Below, piece after piece: positions 3,875 through 54,128 of a stretch of DNA of 64,000 nt. Source of the stretch: Eledone cirrhosa (taxonomy: Eukaryota); contig OZ024740.1 in assembly GCA_964016885.1 (NCBI GenBank), positions 363,010,001 to 363,074,000 on the forward strand. The letters run 5' to 3'. Made by a program: the position numbers and the translations under genes. The notes below the pieces were generated by a model, which saw nothing but the letters and a program-made list of their open reading frames with translations, did not search any database and was not told where the DNA came from. Within the stretch, counting starts at the first letter, position 1; each line of letters opens with the position of its first letter.

Positions 3875-3968
<94 letters not shown>

Positions 3969-4086
3969 TTTTTTTGTGTTGCACCATAGAGCATGTGTGT
4001 TTACGTATGTCATTGTGATTATATGTGGGTAGAGATGTGTGCTGATGTAGGTATGTATGTTGACGTGTGTATGTTGTGGGTTCGTC

Positions 4087-9012: not shown

Positions 9013-10127
9013 CAATACTTAGGGTAGTAGAGTGGGTAATAGGAGAAAGTATGACCCCCAACGACAGAGCTCGAGCCGTTTCGACGTCTATTTCTGGACT
9101 AAAGTGAGAGTTGTTTTAGTCTGGTAAATAAATAGCCGAACTTTTCACTGGTACTTCCTTATATGGGAAGATTTTAGTTGTCAAGGGGATTGGTCAAAAT
9201 ATGTAGCCGACACAGAAAAGTCTATCATGGAAGTGGGTGTGGAGTGGGGATGGCTGAACTTGCCTGTAGAACGATAGGGGAGTGGGTAGAGCCGGTCAAG
9301 CGTAGAAGGTGAAATTTACACGACAAATTCTAAGGAATGTGTATGAATGTAGGCCAGAGGAGGTTGGCGAAAAAAGTTTTCTTTAGAAAGTGGAGGAGGG
9401 ACGTTATAGAAATAGTAAAACAAATGCGATTAGGGGACAAAGAAAAAATATAATAAAAAAGAATATAATAAAAAATGAGAGAAAGATGTATCAGAATGTA
9501 AGATTGGAAAGTGAGAAGTGAAATAAGGAGTCTAACACAGCTGCTATATTTAGTTGGTGCTGCTATTTCGGCCAAAGCCACAGAATGAGTTGCTAGATGA
9601 GAATAATTGAAAAATTTAGAATTAAAAATGAATACCACATCTCTGGGGTCTAACATAGCTGCTATGAATAGTTAGTATAGCGTAATCGGCGAATGCTATC
9701 TGTAAGTTACTGTGGTGGGGGTACCGAGGCTAAAGAGGCTCGATAGGCTGCCTCGGGGTGGGAGAAAGGGGAAAAAACAAGAAACGAACGAGGAAGAAGT
9801 GCGGTGGTGGAAGAAGTGATAGGAGGAGACAAAGGAAGAAGAAAACAGAGGAAAAGAAAAGAGGTACATCTACCTATAAGAGTAGCGGTTTTTCCTATCT
9901 TAATCGGCAAGTGGGGAGTTTCAGCCCTAGTCTACCCACCCGGATCATTAGGGGTTTTGAGGGCGAGATAAGTCTTCCAATCCCCTTGACAACTATAATC
10001 TTCCCATATAAAGAAGTACTCTTGAAAAGTTCGGCCATTTATTTACCAGACTAAAAGACTTTTACTTTAGTCCAGAAATAGCCGTCGAAACGGCTCGAGC
10101 TCTGCCGTCGGGTCATACTTTCTCCTT
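9013..10127 (-). mobile_element. 5'-truncated and inverted Naiad-like PLE end, family C (sister of family B)
   Basis: 9013-9977 (-) carries the last codons KTYLALKTPNDPGG* plus the 3' UTR. 9977-10127 is an inverted copy of ~9043-9193 ending at TA/CA repeats. Confidence 0.85.
10017..10113 (+). ncRNA. Type I hammerhead ribozyme, family C (degenerate inverted copy at ~9053-9153 -)
   Basis: ACUC-UUGAAAA-G..CGGC(C)AUUU~AAAUAGCCGUC-GAAA-CGGC-UCGAGCUCU-GCCG-UC^GGGU. Confidence 0.8.
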
Positions 10128-11540: not shown

Positions 11541-11585
11541 ACACATACACATATATATATATATATATATATAGGAACCAGTAAG

Positions 11586-11679
11586 ACCCCGACAGCTGAG
11601 CTCAAGCCGTTTCGACGGCTAATTCTGGACTAAATGAACATTTATCCTGGTATTTAAATAGCCGATCTTCTCAAGGGGT
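11586..11679 (-). ncRNA. Type I hammerhead ribozyme, family B
   Basis: Reverse complement of the 42893-42986 motif. Cleavage predicted between 11591 and 11590. Confidence 0.88.
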
Positions 11680-12777
11680 AATTCCATATATGGTCAAAGT
11701 GATTGTCAAAAATCAGTAGTAATTCTGTGGTTGCAAATTAGTAGGGGAGATGGTGGCTAAACCTGCCAGTAGGAGAAAGAGGGGAGGGGGTGGAGTAGAC
11801 CCAATCAAGCGTTGGTAGTGCCAGCTACAGCTGGGCATGAGGTCAAAGAAGATACAGGGGAGGGGGAGGGGGAGGAAGTCGGAACGGTAGGTAGAACAAT
11901 GGGGGGTAAAAATAGGAAAGAAAAAATACTGAGAGTGAAGAAAAGCAAAAAAGTGTAAAGAAAAAATTAAATTCTACGACCTAGGTGTCAGGCTATTGTT
12001 AGGCGAGAATAAAATAAAGAAAGAAAGAAAGAAGTAAATAAATAAATAAATAAATAAATAAGGAAATAAGTAAAAGAACTAGGTGGGACGAATTAAGCAA
12101 GGACCCTTTTAAGAGGTATAAGTACGTAAATGATACGGTGACTGGTCAACAAAAGGGGCCAAAATACTAAAGAGACTACCACGAAATAAACAATAAAGGT
12201 TTCCATCCCGGGCCAGCAACGACCCAGTGCAGCAAAGTGAACTTGTACGACATAATAATTCTGAGTCCCGGGAAAAATATATACTAATGCTAACTCTAAA
12301 AGATCTAAAACAAGCTACATGAAAGTTCGTACGAAATAAAGGTAGAATACGGAGAAATAAGTTCAGAATCCACCCCGCCCAGAAGAAAAGCGAAGCAAGA
12401 AATACTGAAACGAAAAAATAAGGCATAAGTGCCACTAAGAAATAAAGAGGGCACAGAGAATAGTGGGAGCGGTCGGAAAAGGGGGGCAAGTATCCGGGGT
12501 CTAAGCCAACTGCTATAAAGGGCGGAGTCCGCCAAATCTATCAAAGACTAGGGGAGGGGGGAGTGGGGGTACTAAGGCTACATGGGGCCAAAGGGCAGCC
12601 TCGGGTGGGCGAGAAAAGACGCCGACAAAGGAGAAGAGCTGGGGTAGAAGGACAAAGGAGAGAGGGGGGAAGGAAATAAAGGATGCGATAAAAGAATACA
12701 AAGAAGATCTTACGTCTTCCTTGGCAAGCAGGGGTTACCCATTGCAAAATCGGCAACTGGGGTGTTAAAGCCCTAGT

Positions 12778-14931
12778 CTACCCCCCCGGGTCATTATGGG
12801 GTTTGAGGGCGAGGTAAGTCCTACGCAATCTATGTTTACATGCAGTAACCAGTTCATCTTTCTTGTTTAGGAGTTGGTCCGTCGAAAACAGCATTTGTAA
12901 AGTTTCCTCCGAGCATAAATTGCACGGACGGCGTCCTCCCGTGTAAGAATTGGCTCTGGACAGTAATCTCCAAGTGAGATCATAGGTGATGTTGTTGTCC
13001 TTGAGGTCCCATATGTGGCCCGAAAGTGTAGTGGCGTGACGCCGGGCCGGGTTTCGGAAGGTATGTCTATGTTGGTATAGCCGGGTCTTGAAGTCACATG
13101 CGGTAAGTCCTATATAGGCTTTGTTGGAGGTATCCGTCCTCACGTTGCACTGGTAGATCACATTACGGTCTCTGCATCTATTGTCGAGTGGGCAAATAGA
13201 TCTATCCGGGCAGTTACACCTCCTGGTCGGTTCTCCACTGCTATTTAGGTTATTTCTGCCATCGGGGTTGAGTTTTTTGTTGTTAGAGGAGACGATGTTT
13301 TGTGCGAAGTTTGGTGTAGTGCTGTAAGAGAGTTTGATGGTATTTTTGTTAATTATGTTGTGGTAGCGGTGTTGTAATGGGAAGTGTTTTTCAATGAGCC
13401 TAAAGAATAGTTTCCCGATGGGAGTAGTCACCTCTGCGTTGTGGGGAGGATTGAACCATGTTACATTGCGTGAGCGGCGGTGTCTCCTGCTGGTTCCGCT
13501 AATGGGATCTGGACAGTAGGATATTTCCTCCCGGAAACCACTCCGCTTGAGGGCCTGGTTGTAATAAGGCGCATGTTCATCGAATATCCGCTCATTAGCT
13601 GACAAACGGGATATGCGGAGGGAGATGTTTTTGACCAGGTTGTTTGTGATGTTCCTAGGATGGTTTGATCGGCGGTGGATGTAGTGCAGATTGTCATTAG
13701 GTTTCCTGTATGGGTAGTACAGGTCGTTTTCGAGGTCGAGGGTTACGTCCAGGAAGTTTACTCGGGTCAGGGACGTTTGTAGGGTTATTTTAAATCCCCA
13801 GTCGCGGAAGAATCTGATTAATTGTTTCCGGACCCGATCTGTACTACTGGGGTTGTACCCTTTAAGGGTAAGGAGCCCATCATCACGGTACAATCCACCA
13901 CCGAATGCAGGAAACATATCAGTGAGTTTGGCTATTAGGAATAATCCTATAAGATCAGTGACCTCCGCCGAATCCGTGGCGCCCATGCTGACGTCGAAGG
14001 GTGAGTCGGGAGCTCTTTTTATCCATTTAGAGTCGTCAAAGAGTAAGACTGTCTTCCTGGCGTGGAGGATGATTTTTCTTTCCTGGTCGGTGATGGGCAC
14101 GAGTGTTTCGGCGAAGTCCAAGGCGGCAGTAAGTAGCGGTAAGGTGATTGAAGCATAGTAGCTCTCTATGTCGAACTGTATGAATTTAGTTTCTCGTTTA
14201 TCCTCCATATTGCTGAACCAGGAGATTACTTCCTGGGTGTTGATCCATAGGCTAAGTCGGGTGTGTTGCTTGACTTTTGGTATCACGCGGTCTAGGATTT
14301 TTTTGCTGATTCTCCCTATGTCGGACTTCGTTGGGTTAATAAGCCTGATGGAGGGTTTACGGTCAAAATCGGATTTATGGTCCTTCAGTGTGAAGTATGG
14401 TGTCCGTGGGTCTAGAGGTTCCGTGCGGTCGGCGACCCCGAGGCTGGAGGTGATGTGTTGTCCATCTCGATTTATGTCCTCGATGCAAGAGTGGTTGGCC
14501 TTTTTATAGGTGGAGTTTAGGCTGCTCCTGATCAGTGTGTGGTATCTGTCAGGGTTGACAAAGTATAGGTTCCCAGTTTTATCCGAATGCACCATGATGT
14601 CATTTGTGTTATCATACTCTGTTAAGTTGCTACGGAGTTTTTGTAGGAATCGGTTGTGTCTGGGTTTAAATTTAATGTTCTTGACCAGTTGGAAGAGGTC
14701 ATTCTCGAAGGGTGCGAGCAAGGGGTTCAGGGGCGGAGATTTGTAGGTAATAAATCCGAATCTCTCCTTGGTGCCGAAGTCTTGGTTGTCGCAATATCTG
14801 TCATAGAAAAAAGTTCTCCATCTAAGTCTTTTCGCAAATAGATCAATTTTTTGCGTGAGCATCCGAAGGTAAAGTTTTTTCGGTGGGATTGGGATGTTCT
14901 TGGTAGAGAAGTCAATGTTGTGTTTTCGCAT
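12778..14931 (-). CDS. PLE polyprotein (RT + Zn-finger + GIY-YIG endonuclease), Naiad-like; ~717 aa from ATG 14931
   Basis: Uninterrupted ORF with FSTKNIP, SDKTGNLY, TLKDHK..F..KPSIRLINP, QFDIESYYASI, MGATDSAEV, YRDDGL, CNC....CPL...C, VIYQC..YIGLT..FKTRLYQH and CNLCSEE. The ORF track extends it to a non-ATG start at 15078. Confidence 0.95.
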   Translation of the reverse strand: MRKHNIDFSTKNIPIPPKKLYLRMLTQKIDLFAKRLRWRTFFYDRYCDNQDFGTKERFGFITYKSPPLNPLLAPFENDLFQLVKNIKFKPRHNRFLQKLRSNLTEYDNTNDIMVHSDKTGNLYFVNPDRYHTLIRSSLNSTYKKANHSCIEDINRDGQHITSSLGVADRTEPLDPRTPYFTLKDHKSDFDRKPSIRLINPTKSDIGRISKKILDRVIPKVKQHTRLSLWINTQEVISWFSNMEDKRETKFIQFDIESYYASITLPLLTAALDFAETLVPITDQERKIILHARKTVLLFDDSKWIKRAPDSPFDVSMGATDSAEVTDLIGLFLIAKLTDMFPAFGGGLYRDDGLLTLKGYNPSSTDRVRKQLIRFFRDWGFKITLQTSLTRVNFLDVTLDLENDLYYPYRKPNDNLHYIHRRSNHPRNITNNLVKNISLRISRLSANERIFDEHAPYYNQALKRSGFREEISYCPDPISGTSRRHRRSRNVTWFNPPHNAEVTTPIGKLFFRLIEKHFPLQHRYHNIINKNTIKLSYSTTPNFAQNIVSSNNKKLNPDGRNNLNSSGEPTRRCNCPDRSICPLDNRCRDRNVIYQCNVRTDTSNKAYIGLTACDFKTRLYQHRHTFRNPARRHATTLSGHIWDLKDNNITYDLTWRLLSRANSYTGGRRPCNLCSEETLQMLFSTDQLLNKKDELVTACKHRLRRTYLALKPHNDPGG

Positions 14932-15116
14932 GGTGCGGGTGAAATGAATTGAGCTTAGCGGAAAAGTCTGGATACGGCGTGGTAGGGTCGGAAAGTGCTC
15001 TACTACGGGAGTAGGAGCTAGATAACGAAGGAAATGTGGTAAGGAACCAGGTGGACCATAACGCACCAAAGTACTCAATACTTGAGGTAGTAGAGTGGGT
15101 AATAGGAACCAGTAAG

Positions 15117-15210
15117 ACCCCGACAGCAGAGCTCAAGCCGTTTCGACGGCTAATTCTGGACTAAATGAACATTTATCCTGGTATTTAAATAGCCGATCTT
15201 CTCAAGGGGT
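15117..15210 (-). ncRNA. Type I hammerhead ribozyme, family B (upstream copy)
   Basis: Same fold as the other B copies, with one loop III substitution at 15128 (UUGAGCUCU). Cleavage would create a 5' end 190 nt upstream of the ATG. Confidence 0.88.
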
Positions 15211-16682
15211 AATTCCATATATGGTCAAAGTGATTGTCAAAAATCAGTAGTAATACTGTGGTTGCAAATTAGTAGGGGAGATGGTGGCTAAACCTGCCAG
15301 TAGGAGAAAGAGGGGAGGGGGTGGAGTAGACCCAATCAAGCGTTGGTAGTGCCAGCTACAGCTGGGCATGAGGTCAAAGAAGATACAGGGGAGGGGGAGG
15401 GGGAGGAAGTCGGAACGGTAGGTAGAACAATGGGGGGTAAAAATAGGAAAGAAAAAATACTGAGAGTGAAGAAAAGCAAAAAAGTGTAAAGAAAAAATTA
15501 AATTCTACGACCTAGGTGTCAGGCTATTGTTAGGCGAGAATAAAATAAAGAAAGAAAGAAAGAAGTAAATAAATAAATAAATAAATAAATAAGGAAATAA
15601 GTAAAAGAACTAGGTGGGACGAATTAAGCAAGGACCCTTTTAAGAGGTATAAGTACGTAAATGATACGGTGACTGGTCAACAAAAGGGGCCAAAATACTA
15701 AAGAGACTACCACGAAATAAACAATAAAGGTTTCCATCCCGGGCCAGCAACGACCCAGTGCAGCAAAGTGAACTTGTACGACATAATAATTCTGAGTCCC
15801 GGGAAAAATATATACTAATGCTAACTCTAAAAGATCTAAAACAAGCTACATGAAAGTTCGTACGAAATAAAGGTAGAATACGGAGAAATAAGTTCAGAAT
15901 CCACCCCGCCCAGAAGAAAAGCGAAGCAAGAAATACTGAAACGAAAAAATAAGGCATAAGTGCCACTAAGAAATAAAGAGGGCACAGAGAATAGTGGGAG
16001 CGGTCGGAAAAGGGGGGCAAGTATCCGGGGTCTAAGCCAACTGCTATAAAGGGCGGAGTCCGCCAAATCTATCAAAGACTAGGGGAGGGGGGAGTGGGGG
16101 TACTAAGGCTACATGGGGCCAAAGGGCAGCCTCGGGTGGGCGAGAAAAGACGCCGACAAAGGAGAAGAGCTGGGGTAGAAGGACAAAGGAGAGAGGGGGG
16201 AAGGAAATAAAGGATGCGATAAAAGAATACAAAGAAGATCTTACGTCTTCCTTGGCAAGCAGGGGTTACCCATTGCAAAATCGGCAACTGGGGTGTTAAA
16301 GCCCTAGTCTACCCCCCCCGGGTCATTATGGGGTTTGAGGGCGAGGTAAGTCCTACGCAATCTATGTTTACATGCAGTAACCAGTTCATCTTTCTTGTTT
16401 AGGAGTTGGTCCGTCGAAAACAGCATTTGTAAAGTTTCCTCCGAGCATAAATTGCACGGACGGCGTCCTCCCGTGTATATATTTATATTTACACATATAT
16501 ATACATGTGTATACATATAAATATATATATGTGTATACATATATGTGTATACATATAAATATATATATATATATATATAAATATATATATGTATATAAAT
16601 ATATACATATTCATATACATATATGTATGTATATATGTGTGCGTGTGAGTATATATATATATATGTGTGTGTGTGTGTATAT

Positions 16683-23132: not shown

Positions 23133-24362
23133 ATATATACACACGCATATGCATACACATACATCATATACATACACATACATATATACATGTGTATATA
23201 CATACATTCACATTTTTGGATGACCGTTGACTCTTATGAGTTCTTCCACCCTTACATATATATATTTAATATATACACCCACCCACAGCCACTTACACCA
23301 CCCACTCTACACACCCTACCACCACTGACCCCCACTACACACCCGCATCCACTACACACCCGCATTCAACCCTTTCCCCACCACCAGTATACTAAGACCC
23401 ACTAACACCCCCTTTACCACATACACACTCATCCAAACACGCACACACACACCAGTACACTACACTCCCTCCAACGTCCCCCACACCTTACTCTCCCCCT
23501 CCTTCTCCCCGCTCCACCCACACCCCTTCTAACACACACGCACACACACATCCCACTAACACCTCTACTAATACACCCCTCCCCTTTCACACCTACACAT
23601 CCTCTTCCCTGTCCACCGCACATACTGACACACCGACTTTCTCCACCTGCCATCTCCCCTACTGCTGCTATGCCCTGACCCTCTGACCACCTCACCGCAC
23701 ATACAGACACACAACTCTCCTCCTGCCTTGACCCTCTGACCACTTCCTGTTGCGTGCGCACCCTACATCTCCCCTCTTCCGACCAACCCAACCACGGATT
23801 ACACACATTAGACATCGATCCCACGAATCAACTCCATCACAAGGAAATAATCCGGCCACCCACACGCCACCTACATCCACAATACGTATAAACACCAAAC
23901 ACACGTGCGTACCACCACATATTTACACACTCAGCCTCCGGAATCCTCTCCCCCTCCCCCACCCCTCTGATCCCTCCCCATCCACATACGCACACACACA
24001 CCGACCTACACCCCACCCCGCACACACCTTTTCCTGAACATGGAACACCGTTCTTCCCCCAACTCTCATATTCACATACACACACACACGTACACCTACA
24101 CACACACACCACCTTCAGCCCTCCCCGCTCAGACACACCGCCTCCCTCTCCCCACTCCACCCGCCACCACCCCTACCCGCCCCACACCCCTACACGCCCC
24201 ACACACCTTCCACCACTTGTTTATCTTCATGTTTATTTTTATTTTTATTATGTTTTTATATTTATTTTCATTTGTACCGTTTCCTCTCACCCCCTTTTTT
24301 CTAAATGTCTCTCTCCCACTCCCCTACACACCCTTGGAACTCTCTTCCCACACACTTTTCGC

Positions 24363-24390
24363 CTGAAGAAGGGCTTATGCCCGAAACGTC
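24363..24390 (+). ncRNA. Minimal hammerhead core, family K (second copy at 28069-28096 with a stem II mismatch)
   Basis: CUGAAGA-A-GGGC-UUAU-GCCC-GAAA-CGUC. The stem I partner is uncertain. Confidence 0.7.
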
Positions 24391-24836
24391 GTTCCCCGCC
24401 ACCAACCCACTCTCAAGAGCGTGAAACTAATAAACCTTTGTTCGTACTGCCTCTCTGTTTTGTTCCCGTTCCATTTTTCACTATACAATACACGCTCCCA
24501 CGGCTTCCATGCCACCTTGGAATATTACCTTGACTACCGGCTCAACCCCGATCTAATTCGCCGTGACCACTCTCTCAACTTTCCCCACACCTTCCCACAA
24601 CTTGTTTTTTCCTTTCTTTGCATTACTTTTTGATTTATTTATTTACTGTACTTGTTTATTTCTGTCTATGATTTTTTGTCCATGATTGCCTGTGTATACT
24701 CTCCTGTCCTTACGTTATTTCTGTTAGATTTTTCCTCCCCCGCCTCTGCCTATCTTTGGCACTCACCCCTTCGTTCCACCCCACAGCCACCCGCTTCACA
24801 CACCTCCCTTCTCATTCCTTCCCCTGCTTTCACACC

Positions 24837-26940: not shown

Positions 26941-28183
26941 CCCCCCCCCCCCACGCACACCAACACACCCACCCACACCCACTTACACCACCCACTCTAC
27001 ACACATCCTACCACCACTGACCCCCACTAACACACCGGCATTCAACCCTTTCCCCACCACCAGTATACTAACGCCCACTAACACCTCCTTCACCACACAC
27101 TCACTCATACAAACACGCACACTACACTCCCACCATCGGCCCCACACCTTTCTCTCCCCCTCCCTCTCCCCGATCCACCCACGCCCCTTCTCACACACAC
27201 ACACATCCCACTAACACCTCTACTAATACACCCCCCTCCCCACTCCACCGTTCACCCCCCCCTCTCCCCTGTCCACCGCACCTCCGCACACACTGACACA
27301 CCGACTTTCACCATCTGCCATTCTCCCCTACTGCTGCTATGCCCTGACCCTCTGACCACCTCACCGCACATACAGACACACAATCCTCCTCCTGCCTTGA
27401 CCCTCTGACCACTTCTGTTGCGCGCACACCCCACATCTCCCCTCTTCCGACCAACCCAACCACGGATTACACACATTGGACATCGCTCCCATGAATAAAC
27501 TCCATCACAAGGAAATTATCCGGCCACCCACCACACCCTCTACGGAACTACCTTAGGAACTTACCCACGGACATACACTCACAAACATTTTTTTCCCCAC
27601 ACGCCACCTACATCCACAATACGTATAAACACTACACATACGTGCGTACCACCACATATTTACACACTCAGCCTCCGGAATCCCCCCCTCCCCTCTGACC
27701 CCTCCCCATCCACACATGCACACACACACACACCGACCTACACTCCACTCCACACACACCTTTTCCTGAACATGGAACCCCGTCTTCCCCCAACTCTCAC
27801 ATTCACATACACACACATACACCTACACACACACACCACCTTCAGCCCTCCCCGCTCAGACACTCCGCCTCCCTCTCCCCACTCCACCTGCCACCACCCC
27901 TACACGCCCCACACCCTTCCACCAGTGTTTATCTTCATGTTTATTTTTATTTTTATTATGTTTTTATATTTATTTTCATTTGTACCGTTTCCTCTCACCC
28001 CCTTTTTTCTAAATGTCTCTCCCACTCCCCTACACACCCTTAGAACTCTCTTCCCACACACTTTTCGCCTGAAGAAGCGCTTATGCCCGAAACGTCGTTC
28101 CCCACCACCACCCCACTCTCAAGAGCGTGAAACTAATAAACCTTTGTTCGTACTGCCTCTCTGTTTTGTTCCCGTTCCATTTT

Positions 28184-32595: not shown

Positions 32596-32754
32596 GAAAA
32601 GAGTCAGGATCCCGACGGCTGAGTTTCGACAGCTAGTTCTGAACGCTCAACCGTCGGGGTCCTGACTCTTTTCCTATTACCCAAAGTATCGAGTACTCTG
32701 GTCCACCTGGTTCCTTACTCATGGTCCACCAGGTTCCTTACCACACTTCCTTCG

Positions 32755-32756
<2 letters not shown>
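32596..32756 (+). mobile_element. Miniature hairpin of a B/C-related PLE end
   Basis: Arms at 32596-32622 and 32646-32673 cover the ribozyme cleavage region. The tail ends ..CTTCCTTCGTTA(TA)n as in family B. Confidence 0.8.
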
Positions 32757-32853
<97 letters not shown>

Positions 32854-35789: not shown

Positions 35790-36214
35790 TACAACTTTGT
35801 CTGATTTACTCGTTTTATTTACAATCCTTTAAAATTTATAATGGTATTATAATGAAATAGTATGATAGAATATTAAATGTTAAGTGTTAATTGAACAAGT
35901 ACTTTCATGCTTTCGCAATCTTCAGGTTCATAATGTGTGGTGACAGTCAAGTTTGCAATTTTCAACTGTTGAAAATTGCAAACTTGACTGTCACCACACA
36001 TTATGAACCTGAAGATTGCGAAAGCATGAAAGTACTTGTTCAATTAACACTTAACATTTAATATTCTATCATACTATTTCATTATAATACCATTATAAAT
36101 TTTAAAGGATTGTAAATAAAACGAGTAAATCAGACAAAGTTGTAATTTCTTTTATTAATATAATCTTCTATACACAATCATACACACCCGTGTATATTTA
36201 TCTATCTTTATCTA

Positions 36215-37504: not shown

Positions 37505-38824
37505 TATATAAATAAATATATATATATATATATATATATAACGAAGGAAATGTGGTAAGGAACCAGGTGGACCATAACGCACCAAAGTACTCAATACTTG
37601 AGGTAGTAGAGTGGGTAATAGGAACCAGTAAGACCCCGACAGCTGAGCTCAAGCCGTTTCGACGGCTAATTCTGGACTAAATGAACATTTATCCTGGTAT
37701 TTAAATAGCCGATCTTCTCAAGGGGTAATTCCATATATGGTCAAAGTGATTGTCAAAAATCAGTAGTAATTCTGTGGTTGCAAATTAGTAGGGGAGATGG
37801 TGGCTAAACCTGCCAGTAGGAGAAAGAGGGGAGGGGGTGGAGTAGACCCAATCAAGCGTTGGTAGTGCCAGCTACAGCTGGGCATGAGGTCAAAGAAGAT
37901 ACAGGGGAGGGGGAGGGGGAGGAAGTCGGAACGGTAGGTAGAACAATGGGGGGTAAAAATAGGAAAGAAAAAATACTGAGAGTGAAGAAAAGCAAAAAAG
38001 TGTAAAGAAAAAATTAAATTCTACGACCTAGGTGTCAGGCTATTGTTAGGCGAGAATAAAATAAAGAAAGAAAGAAAGAAGTAAATAAATAAATAAATAA
38101 ATAAATAAGGAAATAAGTAAAAGAACTAGGTGGGACGAATTAAGCAAGGACCCTTTTAAGAGGTATAAGTACGTAAATGATACGGTGACTGGTCAACAAA
38201 AGGGGCCAAAATACTAAAGAGACTACCACGAAATAAACAATAAAGGTTTCCATCCCGGGCCAGCAACGACCCAGTGCAGCAAAGTGAACTTGTACGACAT
38301 AATAATTCTGAGTCCCGGGAAAAATATATACTAATGCTAACTCTAAAAGATCTAAAACAAGCTACATGAAAGTTCGTACGAAATAAAGGTAGAATACGGA
38401 GAAATAAGTTCAGAATCCACCCCGCCCAGAAGAAAAGCGAAGCAAGAAATACTGAAACGAAAAAATAAGGCATAAGTGCCACTAAGAAATAAAGAGGGCA
38501 CAGAGAATAGTGGGAGCGGTCGGAAAAGGGGGGCAAGTATCCGGGGTCTAAGCCAACTGCTATAAAGGGCGGAGTCCGCCAAATCTATCAAAGACTAGGG
38601 GAGGGGGGAGTGGGGGTACTAAGGCTACATGGGGCCAAAGGGCAGCCTCGGGTGGGCGAGAAAAGACGCCGACAAAGGAGAAGAGCTGGGGTAGAAGGAC
38701 AAAGGAGAGAGGGGGGAAGGAAATAAAGGATGCGATAAAAGAATACAAAGAAGATCTTACGTCTTCCTTGGCAAGCAGGGGTTACCCATTGCAAAATCGG
38801 CAACTGGGGTGTTAAAGCCCTAGT

Positions 38825-40350
38825 CTACCCCCCCGGGTCATTATGGGGTTTGAGGGCGAGGTAAGTCCTACGCAATCTATGTTTACATGCAGTAACCAGT
38901 TCATCTTTCTTGTTTAGGAGTTGGTCCGTCGAAAACAGCATTTGTAAAGTTTCCTCCGAGCATAAATTGCACGGACGGCGTCCTCCCGTGTAAGAATTGG
39001 CTCTGGACAGTAATCTCCAAGTGAGATCATAGGTGATGTTGTTGTCCTTGAGGTCCCATATGTGGCCCGAAAGTGTAGTGGCGTGACGCCGGGCCGGGTT
39101 TCGGAAGGTATGTCTATGTTGGTATAGCCGGGTCTTGAAGTCACATGCGGTAAGTCCTATATAGGCTTTGTTGGAGGTATCCGTCCTCACGTTGCACTGG
39201 TAGATCACATTACGGTCTCTGCATCTATTGTCGAGTGGGCAAATAGATCTATCCGGGCAGTTACACCTCCTGGTCGGTTCTCCACTGCTATTTAGGTTAT
39301 TTCTGCCATCGGGGTTGAGTTTTTTGTTGTTAGAGGAGACGATGTTTTGTGCGAAGTTTGGTGTAGTGCTGTAAGAGAGTTTGATGGTATTTTTGTTAAT
39401 TATGTTGTGGTAGCGGTGTTGTAATGGGAAGTGTTTTTCAATGAGCCTAAAGAATAGTTTCCCGATGGGAGTAGTCACCTCTGCGTTGTGGGGAGGATTG
39501 AACCATGTTACATTGCGTGAGCGGCGGTGTCTCCTGCTGGTTCCGCTAATGGGATCTGGACAGTAGGATATTTCCTCCCGGAAACCACTCCGCTTGAGGG
39601 CCTGGTTGTAATAAGGCGCATGTTCATCGAATATCCGCTCATTAGCTGACAAACGGGATATGCGGAGGGAGATGTTTTTGACCAGGTTGTTTGTGATGTT
39701 CCTAGGATGGTTTGATCGGCGGTGGATGTAGTGCAGATTGTCATTAGGTTTCCTGTATGGGTAGTACAGGTCGTTTTCGAGGTCGAGGGTTACGTCCAGG
39801 AAGTTTACTCGGGTCAGGGACGTTTGTAGGGTTATTTTAAATCCCCAGTCGCGGAAGAATCTGATTAATTGTTTCCGGACCCGATCTGTACTACTGGGGT
39901 TGTACCCTTTAAGGGTAAGGAGCCCATCATCACGGTACAATCCACCACCGAATGCAGGAAACATATCAGTGAGTTTGGCTATTAGGAATAATCCTATAAG
40001 ATCAGTGACCTCCGCCGAATCCGTGGCGCCCATGCTGACGTCGAAGGGTGAGTCGGGAGCTCTTTTTATCCATTTAGAGTCGTCAAAGAGTAAGACTGTC
40101 TTCCTGGCGTGGAGGATGATTTTTCTTTCCTGGTCGGTGATGGGCACGAGTGTTTCGGCGAAGTCCAAGGCGGCAGTAAGTAGCGGTAAGGTGATTGAAG
40201 CATAGTAGCTCTCTATGTCGAACTGTATGAATTTAGTTTCTCGTTTATCCTCCATATTGCTGAACCAGGAGATTACTTCCTGGGTGTTGATCCATAGGCT
40301 AAGTCGGGTGTGTTGCTTGACTTTTGGTATCACGCGGTCTAGGATTTTTT
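38825..40350 (-). pseudogene. 5'-truncated family B RT/GIY-YIG ORF
   Basis: Same translation as the C-terminal ~500 aa of 12778-14931. Confidence 0.93.
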
Positions 40351-41799
40351 TGGTTCAGCAATATGGAGGATAAACGAGAAACTAAATTCATACAGTTCGA
40401 CATAGAGAGCTACTATGCTTCAATCACCTTACCGCTACTTACTGCCGCCTTGGACTTCGCCGAAACACTCGTGCCCATCACCGACCAGGAAAGAAAAATC
40501 ATCCTCCACGCCAGGAAGACAGTCTTACTCTTTGACGACTCTAAATGGATAAAAAGAGCTCCCGACTCACCCTTCGACGTCAGCATGGGCGCCACGGATT
40601 CGGCGGAGGTCACTGATCTTATAGGATTATTCCTAATAGCCAAACTCACTGATATGTTTCCTGCATTCGGTGGTGGATTGTACCGTGATGATGGGCTCCT
40701 TACCCTTAAAGGGTACAACCCCAGTAGTACAGATCGGGTCCGGAAACAATTAATCAGATTCTTCCGCGACTGGGGATTTAAAATAACCCTACAAACGTCC
40801 CTGACCCGAGTAAACTTCCTGGACGTAACCCTCGACCTCGAAAACGACCTGTACTACCCATACAGGAAACCTAATGACAATCTGCACTACATCCACCGCC
40901 GATCAAACCATCCTAGGAACATCACAAACAACCTGGTCAAAAACATCTCCCTCCGCATATCCCGTTTGTCAGCTAATGAGCGGATATTCGATGAACATGC
41001 GCCTTATTACAACCAGGCCCTCAAGCGGAGTGGTTTCCGGGAGGAAATATCCTACTGTCCAGATCCCATTAGCGGAACCAGCAGGAGACACCGCCGCTCA
41101 CGCAATGTAACATGGTTCAATCCTCCCCACAACGCAGAGGTGACTACTCCCATCGGGAAACTATTCTTTAGGCTCATTGAAAAACACTTCCCATTACAAC
41201 ACCGCTACCACAACATAATTAACAAAAATACCATCAAACTCTCTTACAGCACTACACCAAACTTCGCACAAAACATCGTCTCCTCTAACAACAAAAAACT
41301 CAACCCCGATGGCAGAAATAACCTAAATAGCAGTGGAGAACCGACCAGGAGGTGTAACTGCCCGGATAGATCTATTTGCCCACTCGACAATAGATGCAGA
41401 GACCGTAATGTGATCTACCAGTGCAACGTGAGGACGGATACCTCCAACAAAGCCTATATAGGACTTACCGCATGTGACTTCAAGACCCGGCTATACCAAC
41501 ATAGACATACCTTCCGAAACCCGGCCCGGCGTCACGCCACTACACTTTCGGGCCACATATGGGACCTCAAGGACAACAACATCACCTATGATCTCACTTG
41601 GAGATTACTGTCCAGAGCCAATTCTTACACGGGAGGACGCCGTCCGTGCAATTTATGCTCGGAGGAAACTTTACAAATGCTGTTTTCGACGGACCAACTC
41701 CTAAACAAGAAAGATGAACTGGTTACTGCATGTAAACATAGATTGCGTAGGACTTACCTCGCCCTCAAACCCCATAATGACCCGGGGGGGGTAGACTAG
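40351..41799 (+). pseudogene. 5'-truncated family B RT/GIY-YIG ORF (inverted arm)
   Basis: Same protein from WFSNMEDK onward. An extra G in the terminal G-run extends the end to PGGVD*. Confidence 0.93.
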
Positions 41800-42892
41800 G
41801 GCTTTAACACCCCAGTTGCCGATTTTGCAATGGGTAACCCCTGCTTGCCAAGGAAGACGTAAGATCTTCTTTGTATTCTTTTATCGCATCCTTTATTTCC
41901 TTCCCCCCTCTCTCCTTTGTCCTTCTACCCCAGCTCTTCTCCTTTGTCGGCGTCTTTTCTCGCCCACCCGAGGCTGCCCTTTGGCCCCATGTAGCCTTAG
42001 TACCCCCACTCCCCCCTCCCCTAGTCTTTGATAGATTTGGCGGACTCCGCCCTTTATAGCAGTTGGCTTAGACCCCGGATACTTGCCCCCCTTTTCCGAC
42101 CGCTCCCACTATTCTCTGTGCCCTCTTTATTTCTTAGTGGCACTTATGCCTTATTTTTTCGTTTCAGTATTTCTTGCTTCGCTTTTCTTCTGGGCGGGGT
42201 GGATTCTGAACTTATTTCTCCGTATTCTACCTTTATTTCGTACGAACTTTCATGTAGCTTGTTTTAGATCTTTTAGAGTCAGCATTAGTATATATTTTTC
42301 CCGGGACTCAGAATTATTATGTCGTACAAGTTCACTTTGCTGCACTGGGTCGTTGCTGGCCCGGGATGGAAACCTTTATTGTTTATTTCGTGGTAGTCTC
42401 TTTAGTATTTTGGCCCCTTTTGTTGACCAGTCACCGTATCATTTACGTACTTATACCTCTTAAAAGGGTCCTTGCTTAATTCGTCCCACCTAGTTCTTTT
42501 ACTTATTTCCTTATTTATTTATTTATTTATTTATTTACTTCTTTCTTTCTTTCTTTATTTTATTCTCGCCTAACAATAGCCTGACACCTAGGTCGTAGAA
42601 TTTAATTTTTTCTTTACACTTTTTTGCTTTTCTTCACTCTCAGTATTTTTTCTTTCCTATTTTTACCCCCCATTGTTCTACCTACCGTTCCGACTTCCTC
42701 CCCCTCCCCCTCCCCTGTATCTTCTTTGACCTCATGCCCAGCTGTAGCTGGCACTACCAACGCTTGATTGGGTCTACTCCACCCCCTCCCCTCTTTCTCC
42801 TACTGGCAGGTTTAGCCACCATCTCCCCTACTAATTTGCAACCACAGAATTACTACTGATTTTTGACAATCACTTTGACCATATATGGAATT

Positions 42893-42986
42893 ACCCCTTG
42901 AGAAGATCGGCTATTTAAATACCAGGATAAATGTTCATTTAGTCCAGAATTAGCCGTCGAAACGGCTTGAGCTCAGCTGTCGGGGT
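42893..42986 (+). ncRNA. Type I hammerhead ribozyme, family B (U3-A8 core)
   Basis: ACCCC-UUGAGAA-GA(U)CGGCUA~UAGCCGUC-GAAA-CGGC-UUGAGCUCA-GCUG-UC^GGGGU. Cleavage predicted after 42981. Confidence 0.9.
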
Positions 42987-42996
42987 CTTACTGGTT

Positions 42997-43086
<90 letters not shown>

Positions 43087-43089
<3 letters not shown>

Positions 43090-43235
43090 CGAAGGAAATG
43101 TGGTAAGGAACCAGGTGGACCATAACGCACCAAAGTACTCAATACTTGAGGTAGTAGAGTGGGTAATAGGAACCAGTAAGACCCCGACAGCTGAGCTCAA
43201 GCCGTTTCGACGGCTAATTCTGGACGGCTAATTCT
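43087..43235 (-). mobile_element. Severely truncated family B 3' end (tail + half ribozyme)
   Basis: Matches 37539-37677, then repeats GACGGCTAATTCT once more. Confidence 0.9.
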
Positions 43236-45013: not shown

Positions 45014-45423
45014 ATATATTGGTAAAAGGAAATGAAAATGCTGACAAATTGATCCCAGTGAAAAATAGTTTAATTAGGAATAAGTAAAAATTAGTAATAG
45101 TATTGGTTAGTATTCAGTTTTGGTTTTAAGTTTTACCGGTTGCGCATTTCTAATACTTTTCAAAAATAATTTTGAGATAGAGCGCCCGTGATGTTTGCTC
45201 TAATCAGATTAGAGCAAACATCACGGGCGCTCTATCTCAAAATTATTTTTGAAAAGTATTAGAAATGCGCAACCGGTAAAACTTAAAACCAAAACTGAAT
45301 ACTAACCAATACTATTACTAATTTTTACTTATTCCTAATTAAACTATTTTTCACTGGGAACAATTTGTCAGCATTTTCTTTTCCTTTTACCAATATATCA
45401 TAACTCGTGTGTTACACCTCTAT

Positions 45424-49872: not shown

Positions 49873-49912
<40 letters not shown>

Positions 49913-49920
49913 TACATAAG

Positions 49921-51123
49921 AATTACATCCAAATTAGAGGCACAGCGATGGGAACGAAGTTTGCTCCCGTTTACGCGAACTCTGTAATGGGATACTTAGA
50001 ACAACAACTCTACCAAGAAATAGAGGAAAAATATAGTACTGACTTTAGAAAGTACATTGAAATATCTTGGAAGAGATACCTTGACGACTGTTTCATCATC
50101 TGGACAGAATCTCTAGATACTCTGGATGAGTTCAATATCCTCCTGAATAACCTACACCCATCTCTCCAATTCACAAAAGAGATGAGTAGGACCAAATTAC
50201 CATTCCTAGATATAATGATAATCAAAAACGACACCACCATTACCACGGATATATATTATAAACACACAGACACCCATCAATATCTGAATTTTAAGTCGTG
50301 CCATCCACCTCATACAAAACGCAACATCCCATACTGCCTAGCCAGAAGAATTTGTACCATTGTAGAAGATACGAATACCAGGTACAAACGCCTAACAGAA
50401 CTAAGAGAATTTTTGCTCAAACAAAAATACCCATCTCTACTTATATAAAATGGCATACAGCGGTCTATAAAAATACCTATACAACAACTTAGAACAACCC
50501 AAGGAAGAAGAAACCAAGAACTGGTCATACCATTTATAATGACACACAACCCATGTCACCAGAATATCTTCAACACTGCCAAAGCAAACCTACCGATCAT
50601 TGCTCAAAGTAATGAATTAAAAGGCTTAATCACAGATCGATCTTTGACTCTTAGTAAAAGACAGCCAAAAAATTTGAAGCAATTACTAACAAAAGCAAAG
50701 TTTGACCTTAACAACAAAGACCAATCATTCACTGTATCTAAATGCAATGATAGTCGATGCGGCACATGTCAATCCATACACGCCGGTCAATATATGAAAA
50801 CAAAAACTGGAAAAATATTCCCAAATGCAAATATGAACTGCAAAAGCAGAAATCTAATTTACTGCATTAAATGCCCGAATTGTGAAGAACTATATGCCGG
50901 TCAAACTGGAAATGCACTATCGGAACGTGCACGGGTACACCATCAACAAATCAGAGACCCAAATGTCCGTCAGATACCCCTAAGCAACCACCTAGCAACA
51001 TGTGGTCAGGGAATATTTATCATATTCCTATTCTACAAATTACACAGCCCAAGTGAAATCAAGAGAAAAATCAAAGAAAAGAATTTTATTGATAAATTCA
51101 AACCCAAGCTAAATGAACAATAA
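49921..51123 (+). pseudogene. Family D RT C-half + GIY-YIG endonuclease, one in-frame TAA at 50446-50448
   Basis: GTAMGTKFAP, WKRYLDD, HTKRNIPY, CNDSRCGTC, LIYCIKCPNCEELYAGQT and FKPKLN. The two ORF-track pieces share one frame. Confidence 0.93.
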
Positions 51124-51497
51124 TAACGCTTAGGGGTATTACTTCTACTACCACTATGACCACGACCACTAACAACAACAACAACAATAATAATAACAAT
51201 AAAAGTGATGTTGATGGTGATGATTAATAGAAAATGCTATTTTCATCATTTCTAAAAATAGCAAAACAATTGATGCTTTGGATATGATTATTGGTCGTTA
51301 GCATGCTCAACCAGCCGTGACGCTTAAACCAATCAGCTTTAGTAATTCAGTGAAACTATACACTGATTGGTCGAAATACAGTTTACAGGGCTTAGCATTC
51401 TGGAGCCACTTTTCTCTGTATAAAATGTATAAAAGGTAGGAAATTTACCCATCTCATTACAGTTGAAAATTGCAAACTCGACTGTCACCACATATTA

Positions 51498-51536
51498 TGA
51501 ACCTGAAGATTGCGAAAGCATGAAAGTACTTGTTCA
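51498..51536 (+). ncRNA. Minimal type I hammerhead, family D
   Basis: UGAAC-CUGAAGA-UUGC-GAAA-GCAU-GAAA-GUAC-UU^GUUCA. Confidence 0.88.
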
Positions 51537-51738
51537 ATTAACACTTAGAATTTAATATTCTATCATACTATTTCATTATAATACCATTATATATTTTAAA
51601 GGATTGTAAATAAAACGAGTAAATCAGACAAAGTTGGAATTCCTCTTATTAATATAATCTTCTATACACAATCATACACACCCGTGTATATTTACCTATC
51701 TATATCTATATATATATTCCTATTGTGTATATGCCAAC

Positions 51739-52983
51739 ATGTCTGGAAAGCAACAAATGAAACCAACAGAATCAGAAAGAATTCTAAAGGAGATATCATC
51801 GAAATTATCAACACTTATCACGATGATGGACACACAATCCTCTATTTTAAAGGAAATAGAAAAACAATCTACAGACGGAAAACTTATAACTGAACATATA
51901 AACTCTGAAATTAAGAATTTAGCTGAAATTATACCAACAGTTATCAAAGATACAAGAGAAAACCTACCACAACCCCCTTGGATGTCAGAAATAAACGAAA
52001 GAAATTTGGAAAACAAAACACATCGAATAAGAAAAGAAATGTGGAAGACATGGAAAAAATTCCTTAACATAAGAAAACAAAATTTCTGGAAAGCATACAG
52101 ATGCGAAAAATATGTCGAAACACATTCGAAATGGCTCTCTCTAACGGCACCCATACTCCCTCGTAAATACCTAATTACAGAAATTGCAGGAGAACCAGAA
52201 GAAGAAACAAAACTCCGATGGGAACTTACATTGACAAAATTCAGGACCGACATCTCCATTTCTGAATGTAAACAATCCCGCTACAAAGCCAAATATGAAG
52301 CTATTGATGACCAAATTGAAGTTGAAATTTCAAAGCTAACGACTGGTATTATAGCTGAAAAACTACGAGAACTATGGATCGGAGATATCTCAAAAGAAGA
52401 AAACAAATCAAGAATGGTATGGCAGCAGAAACAATTATTTCTCGATGAATATGCTGCAAATTACGGTAAAGACTCTGGAACCCTGAGAAAAAGCATTAAA
52501 AGTGGACAATCTCATCAACACAACATACGCCAGAACACGTGCCAACACAAACACTCACCTTACCTTGAATCAAAGAAGAACTACGGCAATAACTCTTCGC
52601 TTTTTCTACAAAAACACCCTATCGCACACAACATGAACAAAAAGCACAAACACGATAGATATTCCTTTGACCAGACCATGAGAAGTAGTAAAACCAGGAG
52701 ATCATTCTCAAGATCTCAACAGAGACTACCAACAAGGAATGTGGAAACAAAACGTAGAATAACCAGATCACTCTCAAGATCTCAACAGAGATTGCCCACA
52801 AGAAACTGGACGAAAAAACGATCTAAACCTGAAAGCAAACCTAGGTCATTTTCCCAGATTGTTAAAAATAATGCTAACAGGAAGAAAAATAATATACAGA
52901 ATACCAAAAATAGGACAAAATACATAACGAAACCAAATATAATATCACGACTAAGCGAATACCAACAGGAATATAAATCCTGA
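51739..52983 (+). CDS. PLE ORF1, family D (coiled-coil + basic RS-rich tail), 414 aa
   Basis: ATG lies just after the pLTR tail. Similar to family A ORF1, with a duplicated SRSQQRLPTRN repeat. Confidence 0.75.
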   Translation: MSGKQQMKPTESERILKEISSKLSTLITMMDTQSSILKEIEKQSTDGKLITEHINSEIKNLAEIIPTVIKDTRENLPQPPWMSEINERNLENKTHRIRKEMWKTWKKFLNIRKQNFWKAYRCEKYVETHSKWLSLTAPILPRKYLITEIAGEPEEETKLRWELTLTKFRTDISISECKQSRYKAKYEAIDDQIEVEISKLTTGIIAEKLRELWIGDISKEENKSRMVWQQKQLFLDEYAANYGKDSGTLRKSIKSGQSHQHNIRQNTCQHKHSPYLESKKNYGNNSSLFLQKHPIAHNMNKKHKHDRYSFDQTMRSSKTRRSFSRSQQRLPTRNVETKRRITRSLSRSQQRLPTRNWTKKRSKPESKPRSFSQIVKNNANRKKNNIQNTKNRTKYITKPNIISRLSEYQQEYKS

Positions 52984-52998
52984 ACAGAGAAAAATCCA

Positions 52999-53556
52999 TT
53001 TTTTAACGTCAGGACAACAAAAACCGGAAAAAGAAAAACTCCAGGAGGAAACATACCCAAAACAGCTGTACACGTAAATCCTAAAATAATTAATTTATCT
53101 AAAAGAGATCTTGACAATGATGAAATGCAAATTCTGTCAAAAGGACTGAAATTCACACCGACTCCAACAGTCAACCACCAAGAACTGAAGGAGGATACCC
53201 AAGAATTCTGTCGAAAATTACGTCTTGTAGAATTCTTCGCTGATAAAAATAATGAGAGTGATGAATCACTAGTAAAGAATAAATCAAATTTCACTCCGCC
53301 AAAAGGAAGAAATATCTATCTCGACCAATATATTGACATCCTGTCTAAATTTCCTCTTAGACATAATACTAATGTTAGGCCAAACATTAACAAATCGGAA
53401 ATGTCTGCACTTAAACGTATACAAAATGATAAAACAATAATAATTAAACAAGCAGATAAAGGGGGTGCAGTTGTTATAATGGATACTGAATACTACAAGG
53501 ATTTGGTTGAGGAACAACTGAAAGACACAACATTCTATCATGAAATACCGTCAAAT
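52999..53556 (+). pseudogene. N-terminal part of family D pol
   Basis: IINLS..ILSKGLKFTPTP, FCRKLRL and IIKQADKGGAVVIM. Truncated at the adjacent element. Confidence 0.88.
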
Positions 53557-54128
53557 ATATTTTATTCAAACTTTACATGTGTATTACATCTGTGTTTCAA
53601 GAAGTGTTATGCACATAAAAAATTCAACTTTATTATCTCCTATGGCCCGCATTAGGTGAAAAACTGCGTTTTTAAAGAGTTTTAGGGGGGGAGGGGGGTT
53701 TAGGCGTTACATCAGACCGATTTCCTTGAAATTGTAACTATGTATTAGTCAGTCTCTTCTTCATACCGTAAGGAAAGAAAATCCAACTTTCTTATGGCCT
53801 AGGGCCCGCATTAGGTGAAAAACTTCATTTTTCAGCTTTTTAGGGTTTTTTTGAGGTGTTAAATCTAGCCGATTTTCCCGAAATTTCAAGGCATATTATG
53901 CACATAAAAAAATTCATTTTCTTGATCCCCCAGAGCCCGCATTAGGTGAAAACCTGCATTTTTCCTGCTTCATCGAAGAAAATCTTAAAGATTATCCAGC
54001 CATCAGAGTATTCGGTTTATTTTCTTTACATATTGTCCAGGCATGCAGTTTTTCCACGATTAGGTCTGTTGGCGGCCCGCGTTCCAAAATACCTTCTCCC
54101 GTGCAACGCCGGGTACCACTGCTAGTAT
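53557..54128. mobile_element. Helentron/HINE-like non-autonomous element
   Basis: Ends CCGTGCAACGCCGGGTACCACTGCTAGTA and contains three internal GCCCGCATTAGGTGAAAA repeats. Confidence 0.55.

What the first reader, a model, noticed from the sequence alone, without database searches (positions are those of the whole stretch)
42893..42986. Non-canonical full-size hammerhead (UUGAGAA core, ~54-nt stem II domain) in an apparently active Naiad-like element
Seen: four complete copies with all three stems. The usual C3-G8 pair is replaced by U3-A8, so a CUGANGA search would miss it. Sister family C keeps the fold with different sequence: UUGAAAA core, stem I ACUC/GGGU instead of ACCCC/GGGGU, and a stem III G-U replaced by G-C. 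Established: 3-8 covariation is tolerated by hammerheads. Inference: this is a functional ribozyme, larger than typical minimal PLE hammerheads, and its extended stem II may be a protein-binding or tertiary-contact module.
Basis: partly seen in the sequence, partly recalled or inferred. Interest (0 to 1): 0.75.

Follow-up and report, generated by a model that had tools for sequence, protein, structure and literature searches.

The report
Hammerhead ribozyme hiding a transcription start
This is a real hammerhead-shaped RNA motif at the end of a young Penelope-type jumping gene (Hydra group, not Naiad); its odd core pair is already published, but most genomic copies begin inside its long arm, often with an extra G, which likely marks the element's transcription start, so that only the tail-end copy of the motif would be whole and able to cut.

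Summary
The motif is there: UUGAGAA core, 54-nt stem II domain, GUC site at 42981/42982, four near-identical window copies. The framing is partly wrong. The host is a Hydra-clade Penelope-like element (C-terminal endonuclease; RWR, DKT, CxCx5C), not a Naiad, and U3-A8 is published for PLE hammerheads. The long arm is unusual: 54-59 nt in three families here, 12-30 nt in 21 other Hydra loci. Only its lower helix covaries; the inner helix does not. Its loop holds an invariant TTAGT where 44 of 69 sampled copies begin, and at (TA)n junctions an untemplated G precedes that A (about 173 G : 35 A; background 1 : 18). This is the likely signature of a capped RNA end at window 42941. The 5' copy of the ribozyme would then be born incomplete. 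A small excess of copies starting exactly at the cleavage site suggests some cleavage. Against a strict need for it, 26 of 100 B-type cores carry a C3-A8 mismatch. No RNA data were available. The scan noted the Hydra identity and the start-inside-hammerhead idea before on other DNA of this genome.

The parts
42893..42986 (+). Type I hammerhead motif, family B (motif positions 1-94), near the 3' end of a pseudo-LTR
   Evidence: sequence, fold, copies
42893..42897 (+). Stem I, 5' strand; pairs with 42982-42986; predicted to extend beyond a 6-nt bulge
   Evidence: no change on both sides in 5 pairs
42898..42904 (+). Core U3 U4 G5 A6 G7 A8 A9; N7 is G, A or U in families B, C, D
42905..42958 (+). 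Stem II domain, 54 nt: G10.1-C11.1 pair, lower helix with covariation, variable loop with weak inner helix
42912..42919 (+). TATA-like tract 29 nt before the inferred start; present in B, similar in C, absent in D
   Evidence: sequence; TATA position rule recalled, function inferred
42939..42944 (+). Initiator-like TTAGT(C/T); A at 42941 (motif A49) is the inferred +1 of a capped RNA
   Evidence: invariant in family majorities; 5' ends pile up here; extra G; Inr consensus recalled
42959..42981 (+). Core G12 A13 A14, stem III (5 bp) with near-palindromic loop, U16.1 C17; predicted cut after 42981
   Evidence: small excess of copies starting at the next base
42987..43000 (+). Short tail: first fixed 3' end (motif ~108), joined to (TA)n
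43087..43225 (-). Half-hammerhead insertion: begins at motif 50, ends at the second fixed 3' end (motif 188), in the same (TA)n array
40351..42991 (+). Host arm: 5'-truncated ORF (residues 305-784 of P0001), 3' UTR, hammerhead
37538..40352 (-). Inverted partner arm with hammerhead at 37726-37633 and the long tail
11572..16472 (-). pLTR-ORF-pLTR copy, unit 3531 bp, pLTRs 99.8% identical, hammerheads at 15210-15117 and 11679-11586
12778..14931 (-). Intact 717-aa ORF of Hydra type: RWR 37, DKT 117, YRDD 348, CxCx5C 572, AYIG 605, CxxC 670, CxH 698
10018..10113 (+). Family C hammerhead (59-nt stem II domain in the family majority); a damaged partner lies at 9056-9152(-)
32596..32758 (.). Family D half-hammerhead inverted pair with deletions

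Best explanation
The motif is a type I hammerhead homologue in the pseudo-LTR of a young Hydra-clade Penelope-like retrotransposon, and its long stem II loop likely holds the element's transcription start, so that the copy at the RNA's 5' end would lack half of the core while the copy at the 3' end would be whole and is predicted to cut after GUC. Shown: the fold elements, the clade, two fixed 3' ends (motif ~108 and ~188), a sharp pile-up of 5' ends at motif 45-57 in three families, and a non-templated G before A49. Inferred: (1) A49 is a capped Pol II start at an initiator; (2) the reverse transcriptase starts internally at the two tail sites, as shown in vitro for another PLE (PMC11167929); on the 5' part of the RNA it runs off the cap after 60 or 140 nt and leaves about 1e5 half-hammerhead insertions in (TA)n, often as inverted short-tail/long-tail pairs; (3) cleavage of the whole 3' hammerhead removes the 3' tail sites, which would favour such short products; (4) long copies with an upstream pLTR come from templates that run through position 49: a jump to the shared 49-89 stretch at the RNA's 3' end, a circle, or a tandem transcript. 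Cleavage looks helpful but not strictly needed.
For: 5' ends: 44 of 69 arms from 120 stretches of 10 kb begin at motif 45-57, 7 begin upstream, 18 downstream; B, C and D all do it. In DNA contigs of run X1 summed depth falls from 2.0-4.7 million to about 0.2 million across window 15162 = A49. The B-type 3' half has 30120 exact matches, the 5' core 4332. Extra G: after ATATAT and before A49 there are 190 G/C matches (91 G, 9 C among the 100 listed) and 35 A; background after ATATAT is A 89%, G 5%; enrichment about 88-fold. Control at motif 52: 11 A, 1 G, 2 C of 14. Family D: 57 G, 10 C of 67. Neutral decay favours T>C over T>G, 26 to 12, so mutation of T48 does not explain it. An untemplated 5' G is attributed to copying of the m7G cap in L1/SVA insertions (PMC3287187). 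PLE starts lie in the pLTR (PMC2377424, PMC8557442). Ribozyme constraint. Cleavage hint: among 68 distinct (TA)n junctions in the 100 rows listed, 27 start cleanly at G90, against 6 at 91, at most 12 at 88/89 and 4 at 87 (hand count; p 7e-6, or 1e-3 under conservative recounting); nearby positions give about 0-8 each, up to 15 for a pair helped by microhomology.
Against: Only 1 of 18 alignable ORF-bearing B copies starts at motif 50; 15 run upstream through the whole hammerhead and 2 start downstream (20 fetched, 2 not alignable), so one capped template with simple run-off cannot explain long copies. In the looser A/T context G and C are equal (49: 51 of 100 listed). For family D the G:C ratio alone does not beat background (p 0.08-0.16) and the A class was not counted. 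About 7 of 62 junctions reach motif 46-47, upstream of A49 (hand count). The extra G shows an RNA end, not strictly a cap: terminal addition by the RT would look alike. Family D has no TATA-like tract. 26 of 100 listed B-type cores have C3-A8 and none has G8, and both arms of six inverted pairs share it, so mismatched subfamilies were copied. In a second B copy the hammerhead helices II and III have only about 0.25 predicted probability in a 130-nt context and stems I and III vanish in a 450-nt context. The stem II covariation is in effect one split (B/C against D), not many events. In the 1.2-Mb sample only 2 of 69 arms start at 87-93, neither at 90.
Confidence: 0.68

Rival explanations
1. 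The stem II extension is a binding site for the element's own protein (or a tertiary module), and the pile-up at motif 45-57 is a roadblock or pause of the reverse transcriptase soon after initiation, not an RNA end.
For: Long copies pass position 49 (15 of 16 that reach it) while short ones stop (44 of 51), as a block tied to the initiation complex would give. The stops coincide with the 3' strand of the inner helix (motif 46-52). The Anolis PLE hammerhead cleaves only with its protein (PMC11167929). The domain length is held at 54-59 nt.
Against: A roadblock does not predict a non-templated G at one position. The inner helix shows no covariation and is largely absent in family D, which stops at the same place.
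Confidence: 0.12
2. The hammerhead is a catalytically weak or dead relic kept for other reasons: its 3' half as promoter and RT-recognition sequence, its 5' half as upstream promoter DNA.
For: C3-A8 subfamilies amplified (26 of 100; 25% of depth at that base in run X1). All long copies read across the cleavage site. Hammerhead mutants did not affect PLE insertion in vitro (PMC11167929). Low predicted fold probability in context.
Against: Only N7 varies in the core across three families and lower stem II changes are compensatory. The youngest subfamily has the 3-8 pair in 47 of 47 listed copies. Junctions peak at the cleavage site.
Confidence: 0.15
3. The short copies are self-propagating SINE-like offspring: a few masters that start at A49 were transcribed and multiplied, so the pile-up reflects descent rather than repeated run-off from full-length RNA.
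For: Some short copies share private variants across loci; they keep the initiator and downstream sequence.
Against: The boundary recurs with family-specific sequence in B, C and D, and junctions differ locus by locus. This reading still needs a start at A49, so it modifies rather than replaces the main one.
Confidence: 0.05

Closest known systems
Hydra clade of C-terminal EN+ Penelope-like elements (Craig et al. 2021, PMC8557442; section 11 and supplementary files S1, S2 read)
   Same: RT then GIY-YIG-like endonuclease; RW(K/R), DKT, CxCx5C, CxxC and CxH motifs; (TA)n targets; pLTR, inverted 5' copies; hammerhead near the 3' end. P0055, by eye nearly the listed Hydra-2_Amil protein, is 41.5% identical over 703 columns.
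   Different: Unit 3531 bp with a 1.1-kb 3' UTR (Hydra elements are given as generally under 3 kb). All Hydra hammerheads in file S2 have C3-G8 and loop 2 of 3-10 nt; 21 of 77 metagenome Hydra loci with a detected hammerhead all have C3-G8 and a stem II domain of 12-30 nt.
U3-A8 minimal hammerheads of Cercyon PLEs, Schistosoma mansoni (Cervera and de la Pena 2014, PMC4209133; parts 1-2 of 4 read)
   Same: U3-A8 core (about 1300 hits there), short stem I of 4-5 bp, long helix II with an unpaired base near its 5' end, G10.1-C11.1, palindromic loop III, position in the pLTR.
   Different: Here stem III has 5 bp, so a monomer fold is possible, and the stem II domain is 54-59 nt with an inferred start site inside.
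Poseidon PLE of Anolis carolinensis, PAc (Frangieh et al. 2024, PMC11167929; parts 1-2 of 4 read)
   Same: Two internal RT start sites that make the optional tail; both target strands extended; copies read through the uncut hammerhead.
   Different: Tail is about 80 nt here (30-40 bp is the figure given there for PLE tails); the ORF starts 190 nt after the cut site, not in stem II; no start site inside the hammerhead and no mass of cap-ended short copies is reported in the parts read.
Penelope of Drosophila virilis (Schostak et al. 2008, PMC2377424; passages)
   Same: Start site and promoter in the pLTR, initiator-type.
   Different: There the start is upstream of an intron whose 3' end meets helix I of the hammerhead (PMC4209133), so the ribozyme is transcribed whole.
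Naiad clade (PMC8557442)
   Same: (TA)n targets, pLTR and inverted structure.
   Different: Naiads have an N-terminal endonuclease, CxC before the RT and DKA; this protein has none of these.

Membership tests
Naiad PLE | GIY-YIG endonuclease N-terminal to RT | tested here: not met
   YRDD at 348, AYIG at 605
Naiad PLE | CxC motif between EN and RT; DKA motif | tested here: not met
   no cysteine pair of that kind before the RT in the translation; motif is DKT at 117
Hydra PLE | Single ORF, C-terminal EN | tested here: met
   Pfam gave no family for P0001, so domain calls rest on motifs and alignment A1
Hydra PLE | RWK and DKT motifs | tested here: met
   RWR at 37, DKT at 117; RW[KR] in relatives
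Hydra PLE | CxCx5C linker, CxxC and CxH near the C-terminus | tested here: met
   572, 670, 698; no CX2-5CxxC
Hydra PLE | Insertion in (TA)n | tested here: met
Hydra PLE | Generally under 3 kb, canonical hammerhead (typical traits, not strict) | tested here: not met
   unit 3531 bp; U3-A8 and long stem II
Hydra PLE | Groups with published Hydra proteins in an RT tree | not tested
   published sequences were read in the supplement only; a near-identical stand-in, P0055, aligns at 41.5%
Type I hammerhead ribozyme | Core N3 U4 G5 A6 N7 N8 A9, G12 A13 A14, A15.1-U16.1, H17 with a 3-8 Watson-Crick pair | tested here: met
   not met in the C3-A8 subfamilies
Type I hammerhead ribozyme | Three helices around the core, stem I open | tested here: met
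   MFE; 91.8% of 625 cells paired
Type I hammerhead ribozyme | Covariation in the helices | tested here: inconclusive
   3 of 11 stem II pairs change on both sides, 0 of 5 in stem I, 0 of 5 in stem III; few independent events
Type I hammerhead ribozyme | Stem I - stem II tertiary contact | tested here: inconclusive
   stem I bulge and stem II loop vary without a shared pairing; inner helix without covariation
Type I hammerhead ribozyme | Match to an Rfam hammerhead model | tested here: not met
   no hammerhead family among 121 matches at E<=1
Type I hammerhead ribozyme | Self-cleavage after H17 | not testable with these tools
   only indirect: junction excess at G90
Pol II start site (initiator) | Capped RNA 5' ends at the site | not testable with these tools
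   indirect genomic signature only

The most novel reading that the evidence does not exclude
These elements put their promoter inside their ribozyme as a built-in switch: the 5' copy of the hammerhead is cut in half by the start site, the 3' copy trims the RNA, and the 41 nt shared by both RNA ends act like a retroviral R region. Reverse transcription makes a strong-stop cDNA that either integrates (about 1e5 genomic fossils, cap G included) or jumps to the ribozyme-made 3' end, which builds the pseudo-LTR. This would give Penelope-like elements an LTR-like strand transfer and give their hammerheads a defined job.
Probability: 0.3. Interest if true: 0.8.

Novelty: new variant of a known kind. 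Interest (0 to 1): 0.5.

Why it matters
What PLE hammerheads do in vivo, and how pseudo-LTRs arise, are open questions in the papers read (PMC4209133, PMC8557442, PMC11167929). This genome holds a very large fossil record of one PLE lineage that marks, to the nucleotide, two RT start sites, a likely capped RNA end inside the ribozyme and a small peak at the cut site. It also offers natural U3-A8 and C3-A8 subfamilies and an intact young ORF, so the steps can be tested in vitro with the published PAc assay. As first framed (a hidden hammerhead in a clade said to lack one) the finding is not surprising.

Tried and rejected
Rfam scan: no hammerhead match. Pfam: no family for the ORF. RNA evidence: no RNA holder listed; the three runs laid are contigs of unrecorded kind and cannot show RNA ends. 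Inner helix of stem II as a conserved structure: rejected. A pairing between the stem II loop and the tail seen in family B by eye is not kept in C or D. Extra G judged by G:C ratio alone: weak, because background after ATATAT is already 77% G among G+C; the G:A test replaced it. A 3' splice site at TTTAG: not favoured, since many copies include the bases before the AG and no common upstream exon or leader appears at junctions. Fold-back of cDNA on stem II: not favoured, since junctions lack the 5' strand. A simple one-template run-off model: fails on long copies. Family C stem I 'covariation': single-copy mutation. Literature searches that found no report of a start site inside a PLE hammerhead or of cap-ended short PLE copies: (listings only, beyond the papers named); subscription papers are not covered. 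Lunse et al. 2017 on small PLE hammerhead variants was not held (recalled only) and may list long-arm variants. bioRxiv 10.64898/2026.07.22.740005: part 1 of 5 read, supplements not seen. No tree with published Hydra proteins was built.

Full report
1. The observation. Window 42893-42986(+) holds all parts of a type I hammerhead: a 5-bp stem I, the core UUGAGAA, a 54-nt stem II domain opened by G10.1-C11.1, GAAA, a 5-bp stem III with a near-palindromic loop, and GUC with the predicted cut at 42981/42982. RNAfold returns this junction as MFE, though no more stable than shuffles (z -0.75). Three identical copies and one with a single change lie in the window. They come from two insertions: a pLTR-ORF-pLTR copy at 16472-11572(-) and a 5.4-kb inverted pair at 37628-42991 whose plus arm carries the finding. 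Rfam finds no hammerhead here. Below, motif position 1 is window 42893.

2. The host is Hydra, not Naiad. The intact ORF (14931-12778, minus strand, 717 aa) has the RT first and the endonuclease last, with RWR, DKT, CxCx5C, CxxC and CxH. These are the marks given for the Hydra clade (PMC8557442 section 11); Naiads have an N-terminal endonuclease and DKA. A protein search gave 2052 relatives among 7997 scored. One of them, P0055, is by eye nearly the published Hydra-2_Amil and aligns at 41.5% over 703 columns. Hydra elements are reported to carry hammerheads, so the surprise of a ribozyme in a clade said to lack one falls away. The family is very young: the 40 best-scored genome hits to the motif are all 100% identical (414 candidates), and the 150 scored hits to the C-terminal 160 aa are all identical and without stops. 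Present activity is not shown.

3. What is known and what is unusual. U3-A8 is a published natural variant (PMC3088659, passages) and was found about 1300 times in Schistosoma PLEs, along with short stem I, long helix II and palindromic loop III (PMC4209133). The long arm is unusual for Hydra. The published Hydra table has C3-G8 throughout and loop 2 of 3-10 nt; two non-Hydra plant PLEs there have loops near 30-35 nt. In 77 metagenome Hydra loci my descriptor found hammerheads in 21, all C3-G8, with stem II domains of 12-30 nt (8 rows on the reverse strand). A second organism holds a long-arm variant (run X5, record 22).

4. Conservation. I found a third family, D, by predicting its 5' half from partial copies: 105 matches, 0 in the reversed control. 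Across the majorities of B, C and D the core is invariant except N7, which is G, A and U. On 30 of the 84 collected copies, 91.8% of 625 cells pair; three pairs of lower stem II change on both sides, none in stems I or III. These changes amount to one split, so they support but do not prove the fold. One D match has C3-G8. Against strict constraint, 26 of the first 100 of 4332 B-type cores have C3-A8 and none has G8; the mismatch goes with linked sites (9 of 9, 17 of 44 and 0 of 47 in three sequence classes; hand count). An earlier scan note prompted this check.

5. What the long loop seems to be for. In 120 stretches of 10 kb taken at round coordinates, mostly from the large contigs, there are 71 arms, about 1.8e5 if scaled to the genome. 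Their 3' ends fall at two sites, motif ~108 and ~188, the PLE tail pattern that PMC11167929 traced to two internal RT starts. Of 69 arms that reach past position 95, 44 begin at 45-57, 7 upstream and 18 downstream; BLAST ends are uncertain by a few bases at inverted junctions. B, C and D all show it. Exact counts agree: 30120 for the B-type 3' half, 4332 for the 5' core. Depth in DNA contigs steps down at least tenfold at the same place. The edge sits on TTAGT, invariant in all three families while the loop around it diverges. It resembles an initiator with A49 as +1, and family B has a TATA-like tract 29 nt upstream (both consensus rules recalled).

6. The extra G. Where an arm joins (TA)n directly, the base between ATATAT and A49 is G or C in 190 places (91 G among the 100 listed) and A in 35. 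Background after ATATAT is 89% A and 5% G, so G is enriched about 88-fold over A; at position 52 the control follows background (11 A, 1 G, 2 C). At position 50 there are 35 G/C places, 23 G. Family D gives 57 G and 10 C, not significant on G:C alone. In a looser context G and C are equal. A 5' untemplated G is read as a copied cap in L1 and SVA insertions (PMC3287187, passages). The simplest reading is a capped RNA end at A49; an uncapped end with terminal addition is not excluded. PLE starts are known to lie in the pLTR (PMC2377424; PMC8557442 section 10), but in those cases not inside the ribozyme as far as the passages read say.

7. Cleavage. In the 1.2-Mb sample no arm starts at 90. A genome-wide pattern for long-tail arms joined to (TA)n near the site gave 106 rows, 100 listed, 68 distinct places; 27 start cleanly at G90, the first base after the cut, against 6 at 91, at most 12 at 88/89 and 4 at 87 (hand count; p 7e-6, or 1e-3 on conservative recounting). 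Neighbouring positions give roughly 0-8 each, up to 15 for a pair aided by microhomology. This suggests that some templates were cut there; it is a small class beside the 3489 rows for the start-site region (rows count some places several times). The stem III loop can also form a homodimer (-26.3 kcal/mol predicted), as proposed for other PLE hammerheads.

8. The difficulty. Of 20 ORF-bearing copies fetched, 18 could be aligned at the 5' end: 15 run upstream through the whole hammerhead, 1 starts at 50, 2 start downstream. Long cDNAs thus pass the point where short ones stop. They need a template with upstream sequence: a jump to the 49-89 stretch repeated at the RNA's 3' end, a circle of unit length, or a tandem transcript (an array with 3531-bp spacing exists at C1:437.2 Mb). 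These calls cannot tell which. A protein roadblock also fits this contrast but not the extra G.

9. Verdict. A real, constrained hammerhead variant in a known clade. The claims that earned the first score (Naiad host, non-canonical core) are wrong or published. What remains of interest is the long arm as a likely promoter and the fossil record of RT run-off and cleavage. I reached the start-site reading before opening the scan's notes; two earlier notes on other DNA of this genome say much the same, which is not independent support. My paper searches found no report of it. No RNA run was available. Novelty: new variant of a known kind. Interest 0.5.

Noticed in passing
G000, e.g. L309, L310, L318, L319, L117: Subfamilies with a C3-A8 core mismatch, about a quarter of B-type cores; linked sites suggest the pair was lost and later restored in the youngest subfamily (inference, no tree built).
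   Followed up: partly
window 43000 and 43087; 11572 and 37538: Two fixed 3' ends 80 nt apart; inverted insertions usually carry one of each.
   Followed up: partly
G000:C1:437198129-437213199: Head-to-tail array of intact units at 3531-bp spacing with an inverted 5' arm.
   Followed up: no
window 3607-7347(-): Another PLE with Pfam RVT_1 and GIY-YIG hits and a CX2-5CxxC-type linker, Neptune-like by recall; N-terminal part in a separate frame.
   Followed up: no
window 49879-53655(+): Broken PLE related to the one above: RT end and GIY-YIG first, then the N-terminal part, as in a partial tandem.
   Followed up: no
window 25136-27214(+): Frameshifted PLE-like RT with flanking repeats (23275-24470 and 26965-28176, about 83% alike).
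   Followed up: no
window 21044-21496(+): Short PHD-finger match (E 3e-4, below the curated cut-off).
   Followed up: no
window 35790-36144 and 45020-45392: Near-perfect palindromes of 355 and 373 bp, each with relatives elsewhere in the window.
   Followed up: no
G000:C4:213654056-213654125: The one family D match with a canonical C3-G8 core among the 100 listed.
   Followed up: no
L151-L227: Canonical Hydra hammerheads in 21 of 77 marine metagenome contigs, many with GUA-type or CUA-type cut sites ending in A; some contigs have a copy at both ends of the ORF.
   Followed up: partly
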